Shown here: positions 4,523 to 62,210 of the stretch, piece by piece
Position numbering within the stretch: position 1 is the first letter of the stretch
Layout: each line of letters begins with the position of its first letter
Source: Octopus vulgaris
Taxonomy: Eukaryota
NCBI GenBank assembly: GCA_951406725.2
Contig: OX597829.1
Coordinates: forward strand, 14,012,001 to 14,076,000
DNA: 64,000 bases
Direction: 5' to 3'
Made by a program: the position numbers and the translations under genes
The notes under the pieces: generated by a model
Told to the model about the DNA's origin: nothing
The model's database searches: none
The model's input: only the letters and a program-made list of their open reading frames with translations

Positions 4523-4616
4523 CACGGTGCACATGTTTCGAGCTTTATAAAATAACTTATTCTTACATCAATGCATAATCAACATAACAGATAGTTTAAA
4601 GCCCTCTTCAGCCGCA
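4523..4616 (-). ncRNA. Hammerhead ribozyme motif with long stem II loop (degenerate at U16.1)
   Basis: Minus strand: UGCGG CUGAAGA GGGCUUUA...UAAAGCUC GAAA CAUGUG CA CCGUG. Confidence 0.65.
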
Positions 4617-6546
4617 TGCAATTGCTACACCAAAGACTTGTATCACATTATGAAAGGTTTGAGAAAGAATAATTGGTATTATTTATAATGGTAGGTAAAC
4701 TGAGTATCACTGAGAAAGTATGTTTGTAAATCTTCATAATCAAATAGGTGTACAGGGTATTATTGGACTCCAAAAATCCGTCCATACCCTTTTCTCACTC
4801 AATATAGAGTGAATACTGGGTAGATTCCGGTTGGGTTCATTCCTCTTGTAAGGGAAGGAAATATATATATATATATATATATATATATATATATATATAT
4901 ATATATATATATATATATATATATATATATATATATATATATATATTAATAAATTTTAGGGTAGCAAAAGAATTCTAGAACAATTCTCCGCTACCAGCGG
5001 TCTAGCGTGAAAGAAAAATTACTCGATAGACTATATAATATACATTATATGTATATTATATAATATACATTATAGCGAGAAAGAAAAATTACTCAATAGA
5101 CTATATAATATACATTTAAACACATAAGAGATGGCCATAATAGGACATCTGACTCACTAGAAAGAGCAGTTAAACTCCAAACTACTAATAGTTGTAATTC
5201 TGAAATGGAAAGAGATATAAGCTGATGAAGGGGAATTTTCCTTGTATTGTTTGTCCTGTACTCTGTTTTTTCGTTGTTTAAAAAAAGTCCGTTTCCTTGT
5301 TTGTATTTATGTTTTCGTTTCTCGTTGTGTTCTATGTTTATTTGCATGTATATATGCATGTATATATACATGTAGATGTAAATATGTACTTATATGTATG
5401 TATATATGCATTTATTTTATTTATTAAATATATATATATATATATACTATATTTGTTCCACGTCCTCGCGTTGTTGTGTTTTTTGTGCTTTCTTGTTTGG
5501 ATTAACTTTATATATATATATATATATATATATATATATATATATATATATATATATATATATATATATATATATATATATATATATATATATATACATA
5601 TATATATGTATGTATATATAATATTATATTATATTATATTATATTATATTATATTATATTATATTATATTATATTATTATTCATTGCGTTTTGGAAACTA
5701 CTCAATAGTGTTTGGATTAATGACTATTGAAAAGGTTGCAAGATGCAACGTAAATTATATTTTAAATATTTAAGTAAATGAGTAGAAACATTACTGGTGA
5801 AAGTGTAAAATTATAAGGAACTAAAAGAGAATGACTCTCCCCATGCATATTTTCTGTCTATGTTTGTCCCCTATCAGTGTTGGTTTCTTTACGTCCCCGT
5901 AAATTGGCAGTTCCGCAAAATAGAACACAGGAATAAGTACTGGTCTTTAAAAAAATAAAACCTGGACTCAATTTCTTCGACCAAAGCCTTCAAGGTGATA
6001 CTCCAGCATGACCGCAATCGAAAGTAACTGCAACAAGTAAAACAATAAAAAAATTTTTAAATACATAAACATGCATATATCATATATATATATATGTATA
6101 TCTGTATGCATACGCATATATAGATGACTATTTTTGTGCGCTTGTGTTCAAGCAGGAATATGTGTGTGTGTACGTGTGTTTGTTTGTGCGTCTGCGTGTG
6201 TGTGTGCGTGTGCGTGTGCGTGTGTGTGTGTGTGTCTGTGTCTGTGTGTGTGTGTGTGCTAATAATAATATTTTATAAGCTTAAAGCTTATAAGCGTTCC
6301 CCGGGCATTGATTTAGGATATCTGGTAAGCGGCTAGTTATTTGGTGAAAATCGGCACCGCTTACCAAATATTCGTTATAAATGTATACGTAAATTTGTGT
6401 ATATATATATATGTATATATATATATATATATATATATATATATATATATATATATATATATATATATATATATATATATATATATATATATATAAAAAA
6501 CAAGTCAAAAATAGAAAATGCTAAAATAATTTTATAGTGAACATTT

Positions 6547-6584
6547 CAGTACCGGTTTCGGTCATTTTGAGACCTTTTCAACTG
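6547..6584 (-). ncRNA. Minimal hammerhead ribozyme, U3-A8 core variant
   Basis: Minus strand: CAG UUGAAAA GGUC UCAAAAU GACC GAAA CCGG UA CUG; second copy at 55916-55952 (+). Confidence 0.8.
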
Positions 6585-6784
6585 TAACGATTAAATAATT
6601 AAATTTAGAAAAATTAGAAGAAAAGTTTTTTTAAAAGAATATTTCTATAGTAGTGTTCAGATTTAAGTGGCATTCTGCCTTTCTCTGACTCCCTTGTTTG
6701 CACTTGTGTGTTCGAGGTAGTTATATATATATATATATATATATGTAAGTGTATATATAAAATATATATATATATATATATATC

Positions 6785-7228
6785 TTTTTTTTTTACTTCT
6801 TTTCGTTATTCTACTGCGGCCATACTGGAGCACCGCCTTTAGTCGAGCAAATTGACACCAGAACTTATTCTTTCGAAGCCTAGTATTTATTCTATCGGTC
6901 TCTTTTGCCGAACCGCTAATTTACGGAGAGGTAAACACACCACCATCAGTTGTCAAGTGATGTTGGGGACAAACGCAGACATGCAAACATTTTCACACAC
7001 AGACATACATATATATATATATATATATATATATATATATATATATATATATATATATACACAAGACCAGCTTTTCTTTGAATTTCCGTCTACCAAGTCC
7101 ACTCACAAGGCTGTGGTAGGCCGAAGTTATGGTAGTAGACACTTTCCCAAAGTGCCACGCAGTGGGACTGAACCCGGAACCATATAGTTGGTAAGCCAGC
7201 TACTTACCGCATAGTTACTCCTGCACCT
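6785..7228 (-). mobile_element. SINE family 1, full length, diverged
   Basis: Head, internal (TA)/(TG) tract and tail all match the family. Confidence 0.9.
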
Positions 7229-7938
7229 ATGTGTGTATATGTATATATATATAAATATATATATATATATATATATATATATATATATATATATATATAT
7301 ATATATGCATGTATATATACTTGTAGATGTAAATGTGTACATATATGTATGTATATATGCATATATTTTATTTATATATATATATATATATATTTGTATG
7401 TATATGTATGCATATATGTATATGTATGTATATATATATATATGTATATATATGTATATATACATATATGTATATATACATACATATATATATAAATATA
7501 TATATATATGTGCATGCATATATAAATATATATGCATGTGTATGTTTGTATGTATGTATATATATATATATATATATATATATATATATATATGTGTGTA
7601 TATATATATATATATATATTATATATATATACACACACACACACATATATATATATATATATATATCCGTGTACGTATGGATCTGTATATATATATATAT
7701 ATATATATACATTATCGAAGGGACAGAAGTTTGTGATGACAATCTTTTTAAATATTACGTATATAAACATGCATGCGTGTCTTTGTATGTATAAATATAT
7801 ATATATATATATATGTATATATATATATATAGATATAGATATATACATACATACATACATACATACAAACACACACATGCATATATATTTATATATATAT
7901 ACAGATACATATATATTCATATATATGTATTATATATA

Positions 7939-8720
7939 CTCTTTTATTGTTTTACTTGTTTCAGTCATTTGACTGTGGCCATGCTGGAGCACCGCCTTTA
8001 GTCGAGCAAATCGACCCCGGGATATATTCTTTGTAAGCCCAGTACTTATTCTATCGGTCTCTTTTTGCCGAACCGCTAGATGACGGTGACGTAAACACAC
8101 CAACATCGGTTGTCAAGCAATGCTAGCGGGACAAACACAGACACACAAACACACACACACACACACACACACACACACACACACACACACACACACACAC
8201 ACACACAAATATATATATATATATATATATATATATATATATATATATACATATACACGACAGGCTTCTTTCAGTTTCCGACTACCAAATCCACTCACAA
8301 GGCATTGGTCGGCCCGGGGCTATAGCAGAAGACACTAGCCCAAGATGCCACGCAATGGAACTGAACCCGGAACTATGTGGTTGGTTAGCAAGCTTACAAA
8401 AGAATAAATCCCGGGGTCGAATTGCTCGATTAAAGGCGATGCTCCAGCATGGCCGCAGTCGAATGACCGAAACAAATAAAAGATTATATATATACATATA
8501 TGTCTGTGTTTATGTGTGTGTGTGTGTGTCTGTATGTGTGTGTTTCTTCTCCACAACATCCTTGACAACCGATGCTGATGTGTTTACATCTCCGTAACTT
8601 AGCGGTGCGGCAACATAGACTGATAGAATTAGTACTAGGCTCACAATGAATAAGTTCTGCTGTTGATTTGGTCGGTGCTCCAGCAAGGCCTTAGTGAAAT
8701 GACGGAAGCAAATAAAAGAA
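7939..8720 (-). mobile_element. SINE family 1 (minus, 7939-8394) joined to plus-strand tail pieces (8392-8482, ~8500-8720)
   Basis: Family sequence; orientation flips at ...ttagcaagcttacaaaagaat. Confidence 0.85.
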
Positions 8721-60323: not shown

Positions 60324-60371
60324 TATATATATATATATATATATATATATATATATATATATATATATATA

Positions 60372-60740
60372 GTGAGGCGCAATGACCCAGGGGTTATGGC
60401 ACCGGACTTGCAGTCGTAGTATCGGGGCTTCGATTCCCAGACTGAGCGTTGTGAGTGTTTATTGAGCGAAAAAAACACCTAAAGCTCCACGAAGCTCTGG
60501 CAGGGGGGGGGGGGGGTAACCCTGCCGCACTCTTTCGCCACAACTTTCTCTCACACTTTCTTCCTGTTTTTGTTGTACCTGTATTTCAAAAGGCCAGCCT
60601 TGTCACACCCTGTGTAACGCTGAATCTCCCCGAGAATTACGTTAAGGGCACTCGTGTCAGTGGCGTGCTCAGCCACTTGCACGTTAATTTGATCAGATCA
60701 ACTGGAACCCTCGTCGTCGTAACCGACGGAGTGCTGCGAT
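60372..60740 (+). mobile_element. SINE family 3 (tRNA-derived head)
   Basis: ggcgcaatgacccaggggtta...ggcttcgattccc A/B-box-like head followed by GC-richer body; single copy here. Confidence 0.6.
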
Positions 60741-60928
60741 GTGTATGTATATATACATATATATGTGTGTGTGTGTGTATATATATATATATATGCATAT
60801 ATGTATATATATATATATATATATATATAAATATGTATATATGTATATGTATATATCTTTATATATGTATATATTATATATTATATATATATATATATAT
60901 ATATATATATATATATATATATATATAT

Positions 60929-61285
60929 ATAAATAAATGAAAGAATGGAGTTGAACGACGATTTAACAAAATTCCTTTATTCTTTGACATATGCTTCGAA
61001 GGCTGCATATTCCTAATTTCGAAGGAATAAGGTGTGCATTATGCTGCCTTCTCATCAGAAGAGACAAGGAATTTATGTCAGCATCAAGATGAACAAAAAC
61101 TCTTAGATGACTGCCCACTCAGAGTCCATAGCGATGTTTTGTTCATCTTGATGCTGACATAAGTTCCTTGTCTCTCCTGGTGAGAAGGCAGCATAATGCA
61201 CCCCTTATTCCTTCGAAATTAGGAATATGCAGCCTTCGAAACATATGTCGAGAATAAAGGAATTTTGTTAAATCGTCGTTCAACT
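60929..61285. repeat. Fold-back inverted repeat (~150-180-bp arms) with a hammerhead in each arm (61173-61253 +, 60981-61062 -)
   Basis: + arm: UCUC CUGGUGA GAAGGC...GCCUUC GAAA CAUAUG UC GAGA; - arm has CUGAUGA but GAAG. Confidence 0.88.
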
Positions 61286-61452
61286 CCATTCATTCATTTA
61301 TTTATATTAAAAAAACACAAATTTCCACAGGAAAGCACGTGATCTCTGCCCTTGGCATGTAGCTTCAACCGTGTTTTTCTGAGGGATAATTCATTCAACT
61401 ACTTAAATATATATATATATATATATATATATATATATATATATATATATAT

Positions 61453-62210
61453 AATGAGGGAGATAAATTGAATATTAATTTAATTAATATCAATTTAAAA
61501 CCAGTAGCCTAGCATACAAAAATCTGAAAAATCAGAGAAAATCCTAATACATGTGTATATTTTAAAGTATACCACTATGTGGACAGCCATATACTAGAAA
61601 TAGATCACCTACGATCAAACTACAAAGAAAGAATGTTCTCTAGAGAAAAATTCAGAGGACACCAAAACAATAGGCGGGCAAGATAGATGAAAATTATATA
61701 AAAAAAAACAAGAATTAATCGCAAACCGGTATTAATACCGCAAACATATATTAATTAAATTAATATTCAATTTATCCCCTCATTATTTAAATTTTAAAAT
61801 AAATATGTTCTCTAATAGGCAGCATTAACTGCAGTAAATTATTTACTGCAGTTTTTGTTTCCGGAATTTAGCGCGCCAGAACTCAGACATTTGAAATTAA
61901 CCCCAATGTAATCGGTGGAACTAAGCACGAGTCTGTTTTTATACGGAATACTGGTGGTTAGTTTTACAAATTATATTGCTTTTGGGACAATCGTACTGAT
62001 GAGTCCTACGGACGAAGGATTACGTAAGTGATTTACTTGTTAATAGGCGAAAGCGGTTTGCGATTAATTCTTGTTTTTTATATAATTTTCACCTGTCTTG
62101 CCCGCCTTTTGTTTTGGTGTCCGCTGAATTTTTCTCTAGAGAACATTCTTTCTTTGTAGTTTGATCGTAGGTGATCTATTTCTAGCATATGGCTGTCCAC
62201 ATAGTGGTTT
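61453..62210. repeat. Interleaved inverted repeats (61453-61490/61748-61785 and 61571-61728/62054-62208) around a partial hammerhead core at 61996-62016
   Basis: Arms readable directly; CUGAUGA GUCC UAC GGAC GAA. Confidence 0.85.

What the first reader, a model, noticed from the sequence alone, without database searches (positions are those of the whole stretch)
4523..62030. Collection of hammerhead ribozymes: >12 motifs from ~10 unrelated short elements in 64 kb
Seen: type-I hammerhead folds (stem I - CUGANGA-like box - stem II - GAAA - short, usually palindromic stem III - UH - stem I') at 4523-4616(-), 6547-6584(-), 12363-12465(-), 15388-15432(+), 15870-15913(+), 18141-18177(-), 22229-22279(-), 46826-46860(+), 53858-53908(-)/54971-55021(+), 55916-55952(+), 56322-56375(+), 56701-56737(+), 57947-57993(-)/58191-58237(+), 60981-61062(-)/61173-61253(+). 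Stem sequences differ completely between families while pairing is kept, and nearly all lie in 150-600-bp islands bounded by (TA)n. Established: Penelope-like elements and non-LTR retrozymes carry minimal hammerheads with palindromic stem III loops that cleave as dimers. Inference: this genome hosts a large, diverse population of ribozyme-bearing truncated or non-autonomous Penelope-type elements favouring (TA)n, at roughly one motif per 4-5 kb here.
Basis: partly seen in the sequence, partly recalled or inferred. Interest (0 to 1): 0.9.

Follow-up and report, generated by a model that had tools for sequence, protein, structure and literature searches.

The report
Hammerhead swarm from Penelope-like retroelements
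The motifs are real hammerhead-ribozyme folds at the ends of twelve families of Penelope-like jumping genes and their gene-less hitch-hikers, which end in TA repeats; this is a known arrangement, but here it is unusually dense (an estimated 100,000 per genome) and includes rare core variants whose cutting activity is untested.

Summary
Confirmed. A relaxed type-I descriptor finds 12 of the 17 listed motifs against 0.16 in shuffles. The other five are point-decayed copies of intact families, and an 18th lies at 61990-62064. All belong to 12 genome-wide repeat families. Six (A, D, F, G, I, K) are 3' ends of protein-coding Penelope-like elements: A has a two-ORF Neptune-like parent, with 51 of 57 scored copies stop-free; I and K are Hydra-type. 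Three (H, J, L) are closed non-coding units of 215, 375 and 540 nt, i.e. non-LTR retrozymes. B, C and E have no parent shown. Stem II covaries, and the 3-8 pair occurs as C-G, U-A and G-C. A 600-kb sample gives one motif per 26 kb (about 107,000 per genome), so the window is a 4-fold hotspot. This is known biology (Cervera 2014, 2020; Craig 2021), and this scan met it before in other genomes. Not found in my paper searches: a 6,600-copy G3-C8 family and, outside the window, a LINE-ORF1-like cassette sitting just upstream of retrozyme hammerheads, which may travel with them. Cleavage and circular RNA are untested.

The parts
4480..4861 (-). Family B insertion; hammerhead 4523-4616 with long stem II; this copy has U16.1 to C (predicted dead). 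Parent not shown.
   Evidence: (491 exact matches to the intact 3' half)
5680..5843 (+).
6496..6721 (-). Family A 3' end (Neptune-like two-ORF parent); intact U3-A8 hammerhead 6547-6584, CCGG stem III; (TA)n on both sides
   Evidence: (2,803 exact 14-mer matches, control 18)
12304..12837 (.). Family C inverted pair; intact hammerhead 12363-12465(-), decayed partner from 12505(+). Parent not shown.
   Evidence: (648 candidates)
15372..15672 (+). Family D 3' end (Neptune/Penelope-type ORF upstream in relatives); intact hammerhead 15388-15432, GUAC stem III
   Evidence: (672)
15782..16118 (+). Family E (sister of D) with partial inverted arm; hammerhead 15870-15913 with one extra nucleotide in the C3-A9 box that is shared across the family
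   Evidence: (1,527 candidates)
17157..17265 (.).
18054..18213 (-). Family F copy with partial inverted arm; hammerhead 18141-18177, stem II damaged
22064..22342 (-). Family G 3' end; intact G3-C8 hammerhead 22229-22279, AUAU stem III; short inverted piece upstream
   Evidence: (6,616 exact 18-mer matches, control 0)
46747..46958 (+). Family H: one 215-nt retrozyme unit opened at its internal TA tract, (TA)n on both sides; U4C hammerhead 46826-46860, A15.1 to G in this copy
   Evidence: (8,021)
53765..55047 (.). Family I (Hydra-type parent) divergent inverted pair, 96% over 1.2 kb; intact hammerheads 53858-53908(-) and 54971-55021(+); long and short 3' ends
   Evidence: (3,094)
55091..56037 (+). 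Family A 5'-truncated copy: last 33 codons of the GIY-YIG ORF (55091-55189), 3' UTR, intact U3-A8 hammerhead 55916-55952, tail, (TA)n
   Evidence: (tblastn 76%, E 8e-9)
56304..56490 (+). Family G copy; intact G3-C8 hammerhead 56322-56375
56490..56889 (+). Family F 3' end (GIY-YIG ORF 560-750 nt upstream in 7 relatives); intact U3-A8 hammerhead 56701-56737
   Evidence: (2,862)
57776..58468 (.). Family J inverted pair of the 375-nt retrozyme unit, 97% over 623 nt; U4C hammerheads 57947-57993(-) and 58191-58237(+); the cassette site upstream of each is empty
   Evidence: (48)
60927..61407 (.). Family K (Hydra-type parent) inverted pair; hammerheads 60981-61062(-) with A15.1 to G and 61173-61253(+) with A6 to G, both predicted dead
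   Evidence: (3,045)
61547..62236 (+). Family L, 540-nt retrozyme unit with partial inverted arm; 18th hammerhead 61990-62064 with branched stem II, stem III altered in this copy
   Evidence: (2,083 candidates)

Best explanation
The motifs are type-I hammerhead folds in the terminal repeats of Penelope-like retroelements and of small gene-less retrozyme units, and they likely piled up here because Penelope-type enzymes insert such elements into (TA)n and this window is rich in (TA)n. Shown: family membership, coding parents for A, D, F, G, I and K, closed 215/375/540-nt units for H, J and L, fixed 3' ends before (TA)n, divergent inverted pairs, two alternative 3' ends, and stem covariation. 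Inferred: rare tandem copies are transcribed; two hammerheads pair through their palindromic stem III and cut out a unit-length RNA, which may be ligated into a circle; the RT/GIY-YIG protein of an autonomous element nicks (TA)n and primes at a short UA tract 20-200 nt downstream of the cut site, copies back through the intact or re-ligated hammerhead, and usually stops early. Each insertion therefore keeps a whole hammerhead but little else. Most window copies are single, truncated or damaged and are predicted to be inert fossils.
For: Family A parent: hammerhead - ORF1 - RT/CxxC linker/GIY-YIG (784 aa; Pfam RVT_1 2.9e-8, GIY-YIG 1.5e-4, just under its cut-off) - hammerhead; 28 of 30 fetched full copies have the downstream hammerhead, 11 an upstream direct one, 5 an upstream inverted one; 51 of 57 scored copies are stop-free at 98-100% identity. 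The window's copy at 55091 keeps the ORF end. Family I parent has RWR, DKT and CxCX5C, the Hydra marks of PMC8557442 section 11; K has Hydra-like RT and EN upstream; D, F and G have GIY-YIG ORF ends upstream on the same strand in about 4 of 21, 7 of 43 and 3 of 82 copies held. H has 7 head-to-tail junctions genome-wide, three at 215-nt spacing; J shows a 375-nt tandem; in L, downstream sequence recurs upstream in 12 of 14 copies. First (TA)4 lies 54-60 nt after the cut site in 76 of 79 A copies, 10-25 or 89-98 nt in 40 of 43 I copies, and 90-108 nt in 29 of 39 H copies; 18% of random positions have one within 150 nt. K-group alignment: 9 of 19 pairs change on both sides, 0 of 500 shuffles reach this, slid controls reach at most 6. 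One retrozyme lineage swaps C3-G8 for U3-A8 together with CCAUGG for CCUAGG. Co-folding gives the expected dimer for D, I, J and K. Window TA content is 7.9% against 3.2% in the sample.
Against: No cleavage or RNA end was observed. In a recent preprint only 1 of 9 Xenopus retrozyme dimers cleaved in vitro (10.64898/2026.07.22.740005), and minimal PLE hammerheads cleave weakly even as dimers (PMC4209133). H and J carry U4C, which lowers activity (PMC3088659); in H it is the founder state (U4 in 11 of 100 listed copies, like CpG decay at another site, 9 of 100). H has only 7 junctions against 8,021 motif matches, and its unit does not fold better than shuffles as a circle (z -0.06; J z -5.6). 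No parent was found for B, C or E. Across 10-kb samples, TA content did not predict motif count (rho 0.18, p 0.18), so TA richness as the cause of the hotspot is not shown. In A the first TA tract is also part of the element, so that distance is not always the insertion end. Clade names rest on motifs, not on an RT tree. The covariation control does not correct for relatedness.
Confidence: 0.88

Rival explanations
1. All the short families, H, J and L included, are only cut-down terminal repeats of autonomous elements not yet found; there is no self-standing retrozyme cycle and the tandems are by-products.
For: G looked like a short fixed unit until a GIY-YIG ORF turned up about 1 kb upstream in 3 of 82 copies. 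H tandems are very rare. Earlier notes of this scan reached this verdict for retrozyme-like inserts in other genomes.
Against: In J and L the sequence after the hammerhead wraps round into the sequence before it in many dispersed copies, whereas in A it runs on into ORF1. The single same-strand protein hit among 45 H and among 45 J copies is a neighbouring family-A insertion, and 0 of 17 L copies have one.
Confidence: 0.2
2. The folds are kept for a role other than cutting, such as an RT-binding or pausing signal, and many families are catalytically dead.
For: Family-wide U4C (H, J), an extra core nucleotide (E) and U10.1-U11.1 mismatches (C, D, I, J); low reported activity; insertions extend past the cut site, so cleavage cannot define the inserted 3' end of a linear RNA.
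Against: The 3-8 pair, a core contact, is kept by compensatory change (45 of 49 distinct motifs Watson-Crick; that pattern allowed only C or U at 3 and A or G at 8), and stem III stays palindromic while changing sequence, which fits selection for the active dimer. U4C and U10.1-U11.1 are known to be tolerated.
Confidence: 0.2
3. The motifs are chance matches in AT-rich repeat DNA, multiplied by repeat amplification.
For: My descriptor was relaxed after seeing the sites; about 1 in 24 sample hits is background.
Against: Shuffle and reversed controls, compensatory changes, and the same position relative to ORF end and (TA)n in separate lineages.
Confidence: 0.01

Closest known systems
Minimal hammerheads in the pseudo-LTRs of metazoan Penelope-like elements (Cervera and de la Pena 2014, PMC4209133; first two of four parts read)
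   Same: Type I fold, short palindromic stem III, unpaired base at the 5' side of stem II, U3-A8 variant, many sequence families per genome, mostly single truncated copies, opposite-strand pairs 100-700 bp apart, dimer and circular-template model.
   Different: About 107,000 intact-looking motifs (sampling interval 72,000-167,000) against 9,000 in Xenopus and 4,000 in coelacanth, with different descriptors; a G3-C8 family; founder U4C; several families with long or branched stem II.
Neptune and Hydra clades of endonuclease-positive Penelope-like elements (Craig et al. 2021, PMC8557442; passages and section 11 read)
   Same: RT followed by GIY-YIG, zinc-finger-like linker, (TA)n targets, 3' hammerhead, inverted 5'-truncated arm, one-sided tail; its Figure 1 legend allows an ORF1 separated by a frameshift.
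   Different: Family A has a U-UUU-UUA overlap in 29 of 30 copies but no downstream structure by simple folding. Family I units run about 5.2-5.4 kb with a low-complexity 3' UTR, against under 3 kb described for Hydra.
Non-LTR retrozymes (Cervera and de la Pena 2020, PMC7229834, passages; Li et al. 2026, 10.64898/2026.07.22.740005, parts 1-3 of 5)
   Same: Non-coding 150-600-nt units with a type-I hammerhead, as monomers, dimers and short arrays, beside autonomous Penelope-like elements.
   Different: Here they carry the insertion marks of Penelope-like elements directly: (TA)n ends and inverted arms. H is almost wholly monomeric. Several units host a protein-coding cassette at a fixed site.
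Target-specific Tx1 non-LTR retrotransposons that insert into other repeats or snRNA genes (Kojima 2015, PMC4494074, passages)
   Same: For the cassette outside the window: LINE-ORF1-like protein with a zinc knuckle, about 15-nt duplication, repeated insertion at one site giving arrays.
   Different: The target is a fixed position in several retrozyme families whose sequence at that site differs; no ORF2 was found; some composites look re-mobilised as a unit.

Membership tests
Type-I hammerhead ribozyme | Core C3-A9, G12-A14, A15.1-U16.1, H17 in type-I order | tested here: met
   11 of 18 window motifs fit with no mismatch when 3-8 covariation and U4C are allowed, E with one; 6 are damaged
Type-I hammerhead ribozyme | Stems I-III kept by compensatory change | tested here: met
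   K group, 9 of 19 pairs; J group; relatedness not corrected
Type-I hammerhead ribozyme | Self-cleavage 3' of H17 | not testable with these tools
   only contigs were served; no RNA ends
Type-I hammerhead ribozyme | Tertiary loop I-II contacts of canonical motifs | not tested
   no analysis run
Endonuclease-positive Penelope-like element, Neptune type (family A; D, F, G by partial evidence) | RT followed by C-terminal GIY-YIG | tested here: met
   for A; RT plus EN hits upstream for D; only the EN end seen for F and G
Endonuclease-positive Penelope-like element, Neptune type (family A; D, F, G by partial evidence) | CX2-5CxxC linker before the endonuclease | tested here: met
   visible in the translations of A and G
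Endonuclease-positive Penelope-like element, Neptune type (family A; D, F, G by partial evidence) | Pseudo-LTRs with hammerhead, inverted 5' arm, one-sided tail | tested here: met
Endonuclease-positive Penelope-like element, Neptune type (family A; D, F, G by partial evidence) | RT tree placement in Neptune rather than Nematis or Poseidon | not tested
   no reference RT set on hand
Hydra clade (families I, K) | RWK-type and DKT motifs, CxCX5C linker, (TA)n target, hammerhead | tested here: met
   family I translation against section 11 of PMC8557442; K by 32-48% tblastn identity to I only
Hydra clade (families I, K) | Single ORF, element under 3 kb | tested here: not met
   82 of 100 listed I copies carry an inherited frameshift between RT and EN, 18 are in frame; unit about 5.2-5.4 kb. 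The paper says 'generally' short, so this lowers but does not exclude membership
Non-LTR retrozyme (families H, J, L) | Short non-coding unit with a type-I hammerhead, in head-to-tail repeats or circular permutation | tested here: met
Non-LTR retrozyme (families H, J, L) | Two consecutive units with complete hammerheads | tested here: inconclusive
   met for J (L205); most H tandem units carry core changes; not examined for L
Non-LTR retrozyme (families H, J, L) | Abundant circular RNA of unit length, highly self-paired | tested here: inconclusive
   J folds well as a circle (z -5.6), H does not; no listed contig bridged the H junction
Tx1/L1-type target-specific LINE (cassette outside the window) | ORF1 with zinc knuckle, AATAAA end, target-site duplication, fixed target | tested here: met
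   zf-CCHC below cut-off; atlas leads under 0.9
Tx1/L1-type target-specific LINE (cassette outside the window) | ORF2 with endonuclease and RT | tested here: not met
   none in the fetched copies; a partner elsewhere in the genome was not sought

The most novel reading that the evidence does not exclude
The retrozymes of this genome have become gene carriers. A 1.6-1.9-kb cassette encoding a 450-480-aa LINE-ORF1-like protein homes to a point 20-40 nt upstream of the hammerhead core, about 25-30 nt downstream of a TATA-like box, in at least five retrozyme lineages whose sequence at that site differs. The resulting 2-kb hammerhead-bounded units are then copied as a whole by Penelope-type enzymes: protein-coding retrozymes, alongside a naturally active G3-C8 hammerhead in a 6,600-copy family.
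Probability: 0.4. Interest if true: 0.75.

Novelty: new member of a known kind. Interest (0 to 1): 0.5.

Why it matters
The role of hammerheads in Penelope-like elements is described as unclear in the papers read. This genome offers young, intact autonomous elements (51 stop-free near-identical copies of one family), three retrozyme families with the same insertion marks, and natural core variants (C3-G8, U3-A8, G3-C8, U4C, a one-base insertion) side by side. That makes the dimer-cleavage and circular-template models directly testable in one host, and gives structural support for retrozymes being moved by Penelope-type enzymes. If the cassette lead holds, it adds a third layer: a coding parasite of retrozymes that may ride their circles.

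Tried and rejected
Rfam scan: the listed matches were microsatellite artefacts; 431 lower ones were not shown, so it says nothing about hammerhead models. 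A strict canonical descriptor gave 0 hits because it demanded a paired 10.1-11.1. A head-to-tail junction for G was not found (0 matches), and the idea that G is a stand-alone retrozyme or MITE was dropped when a coding upstream part appeared. A programmed frameshift in family I was rejected: 18 of 100 listed copies are in frame. No stimulatory structure was found after the family-A slippery site. R2-like ORF fragments near J copies on C29 lie on the opposite strand in segmental repeats and were set aside. Shared-upstream-extent counts were swamped by SINEs and not used. The first structure string for the K alignment was misplaced in helices I and III and was corrected. The MAFFT alignment of the J group was not used for pair counts because stem III lengths differ. 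Sequencing runs: no RNA holder listed; contigs of runs only guessed to be RNA cover family A and family H but no listed piece bridges the H junction; this is no evidence either way. Lunse et al. 2017 and the Terminon paper are not held; I recall that the former reports very many PLE-linked dimer-cleaving variants, and it may already contain these families or G3-C8. Paper searches that found no report of these elements: hammerhead ribozyme + Penelope + octopus, cephalopod + hammerhead ribozyme, hammerhead + G3-C8 (one unrelated listing), Tx1 + retrozyme (none). Supplements of the cited papers were not read and may list such families.

Full report
Setting. The window is G000:C16:14012001-14076000 in a 2.8-Gb animal assembly of 227 contigs. 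It is about 33% G+C and full of (TA)n. From its repeats I infer a cephalopod-like genome; no call verifies this.

Observation. All 17 listed sites show the fold. A strict descriptor found none, because many have an unpaired 10.1-11.1. A relaxed one, tuned after seeing the sites, found 12 at score >=10, against 0.16 (maximum 2) in 100 shuffles and 0 in the reversed window. To escape the tuning I freed the 3-8 pair and stem III: 10 of 10 window hits kept a Watson-Crick 3-8 pair and 6 of 10 a perfect palindrome; in the 600-kb sample 19 and 15 of 29 did, against 2.0 and 0.3 of 6.6 in shuffles. The five misses are single-copy damage. Fourteen of 18 lie in (TA)n islands of at most 600 bp, against 33% expected.

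How typical is the window. Sixty fixed 10-kb stretches from 30 contigs gave 24 hits at score >=12 (shuffles 1.05), one per 26 kb after background. The window has 11 in 64 kb, 4.3 times more (p 3e-4). Scaled up this is about 107,000 intact-looking motifs (sampling interval 72,000-167,000). Exact-pattern counts for nine families sum to 27,652 (A 2,803, G 6,616, H 8,021, I 3,094, J 48, D 672, K 3,045, F 2,862, B 491; reversed controls 0 except 18 for A). These are floors, and the B and K patterns cover only the 3' half. Published counts, with other descriptors: 9,000 Xenopus, 4,000 coelacanth; over 6,000 coral, about 5,000 mussel, up to 120,000 axolotl.

What the families are. Family A: pairs of motifs 3-5 kb apart enclose ORF1 (446 codons, no Pfam match of note) and a 784-aa ORF with RT, a CxxC linker and GIY-YIG. 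The two ORFs overlap at U-UUU-UUA in 29 of 30 copies. A protein search scored 57 of 33,455 candidates; 51 are stop-free at 98-100% identity. The window copy at 55091-56037 still has the last 33 codons. Family I: tandem 5.2-5.4-kb units with RWR, DKT and CxCX5C motifs, the Hydra marks. K has Hydra-like RT and EN upstream. D, F and G have GIY-YIG ORF ends 400-1,100 nt upstream in a minority of copies held; G copies mostly stop about 20 nt before the hammerhead, next to a low-complexity block. H is a 215-nt unit with 7 head-to-tail junctions, each at or near the short TA tract where dispersed monomers open. J is a 375-nt tandem unit, L a 540-nt permuted unit. B has Hydra-like RT pieces next to it in inverted orientation in 2 loci, but no same-strand parent; C and E have none shown, though E is the sister of D.

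Shared insertion anatomy. Family 3' ends fall at fixed distances after the cut site and run into (TA)n. Many insertions are divergent inverted pairs, one arm ending at the first TA tract and the other at a later one. This is the inverted arm plus one-sided tail drawn for Penelope-like elements. In family I six of the first 100 listed matches form perfect fold-backs centred on the AGCT palindrome at the start of stem I (counted as pairs). Contigs of one large run of unstated kind are some 70 times deeper at the 3' end of element A than in ORF1, as 5' truncation predicts, though that depth is not a copy number.

Structure. In 16 K-group copies RNAalifold predicts the 11-bp stem II unaided, 6 pairs with double changes. 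With all helices named, 95% of cells pair and 9 of 19 pairs change on both sides; no shuffle reaches this, slid controls reach at most 6. In a pattern built for the J group, the 3-8 positions are C-G 30, U-A 15, other 4 among 49 distinct motifs; a few of these rows are chance matches or belong to other families. One lineage swaps the 3-8 pair and the stem III palindrome together. Co-folding gives the swapped-stem dimer for D, I, J and K; monomers do not form a stable stem III in A, D, F or G. U3-A8, U4C and U10.1-U11.1 are known natural variants. I found no paper reporting natural G3-C8, but could not read Lunse 2017.

Mechanism. Shown: membership, anatomy, covariation. Inferred from the literature model and the anatomy: tandem copies give a more-than-unit RNA; paired hammerheads cut it; the unit may circularise; the Penelope-type protein primes on nicked (TA)n at the UA tract downstream of the hammerhead and copies back through it. 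The H monomers, opened exactly at the TA tract of the tandem junction, are what one turn round such a circle would leave. Against this: activity is unmeasured, only 1 of 9 frog dimers cleaved in a recent test, H tandems are rare and mostly damaged, and H does not fold as a stable circle. TA content did not predict motif counts across samples, so the cause of the hotspot is not settled.

A lead from family J. Some J units elsewhere carry a 1.6-1.9-kb cassette with one 450-480-aa ORF. It has a weak zinc-knuckle match and atlas neighbours of LINE-ORF1 type, all under 0.9. A search scored 150 of 12,218 candidates. Of 42 distinct cassette 3' ends in hand, 31 have a hammerhead core 21-55 nt downstream by a loose pattern (one looks spurious), 7 are followed by another cassette, 3 sit at other sites and 1 is cut by the locus edge. 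The site carries a duplication of about 15 nt, lies about 25-30 nt after a TATA-like box, and differs in sequence among the retrozyme lineages. The query came from a J-linked copy, so the top hits are biased; of 7 lower, partial hits 5 were also followed by a retrozyme hammerhead. Independent LINE-like movement is shown by copies at other sites and by arrays. Movement as a composite is suggested by L190, cut inside the cassette with unrelated DNA upstream and 1.6 J units downstream, and by L358, whose inverted arm includes the ORF. Two loci are thin evidence. Tx1 elements that target other repeats are known; a search for Tx1 with retrozyme found no paper. The window's J copies have the empty site.

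Comparison and verdict. The system works like, and by the features tested belongs to, the known pair of Penelope-like elements and non-LTR retrozymes. A 2026 repeat annotation of an octopus lists 31 recently active Penelope-like families and does not mention ribozymes in its main text (PMC13282606, passages). This scan has met the same kind of swarm in other genomes; nothing was on record for this one. Papers seen: PMC4209133 parts 1-2 of 4; PMC8557442 passages and section 11; PMC7229834, PMC7761336, PMC3088659, PMC4494074, PMC13282606 passages; the 2026 preprint parts 1-3 of 5; Lunse 2017 recalled only. Verdict: real, new member of a known kind, interest 0.5 for its density, its variant cores and the cassette lead.

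Noticed in passing
L206, L334-L373, L424-L430: Single-ORF LINE-ORF1-like cassette (450-480 aa, zinc knuckle) at a fixed point just upstream of hammerheads in several retrozyme lineages, with about 15-nt duplication; also in head-to-tail arrays without a retrozyme (L364, L365) and once after what looks like a TATA/CCAAT promoter (L338).
   Followed up: partly
L044-L073, about 1522: Family A ORF1 and ORF2 overlap at U-UUU-UUA in 29 of 30 copies, a likely -1 ribosomal frameshift; no downstream stimulatory structure by simple folding.
   Followed up: partly
L199, L209, L043: Most family I copies (82 of 100 listed) share a one-base loss between RT and endonuclease: a defective subfamily that outnumbers the in-frame form.
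   Followed up: yes
L002, L030, L084, L097, L112, L117, L137, L152, L178, L200, L224, L226, L230, L277, L296, L372, L375: At least 15 further hammerhead types not present in the window turned up in flanks, so the genome holds well over 25 families.
   Followed up: no
L032:3-1520: A second, 43%-identical ORF1 begins right after a family-A hammerhead, with another hammerhead-like motif between them: nested or chimeric elements of two families.
   Followed up: no
L370:3457-4653, L371:3682-4908: A different ORF1-like open frame of about 400 aa with a weak zinc knuckle follows the cassette directly.
   Followed up: no
window 26035-26895: Broken mariner transposase (HTH_48 and Transposase_1 matches).
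   Followed up: partly
window 37216-43881 and 51104-51856: Several LINE fragments with RT and zinc-finger domains set in (TAA)n tracts, Dong/R4-like by recalled motifs; no hammerheads were found between 22.3 and 46.8 kb.
   Followed up: partly
window 23725-24400 and 48604-49236: Fragments of other non-LTR elements, one with C2H2 zinc fingers.
   Followed up: no
L092:reverse strand, 182-aa frame: An uninterrupted frame that reads like a deoxycytidylate deaminase (recalled motif, not scanned) beside a family G copy; possibly a processed pseudogene.
   Followed up: no
L219:1384: In contigs of three of four runs guessed to be RNA, half or more of the depth at core position 4 of family H reads U, against 11 of 100 genomic copies; contig depth is too weak to conclude, but raw reads could test enrichment of the canonical core.
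   Followed up: partly
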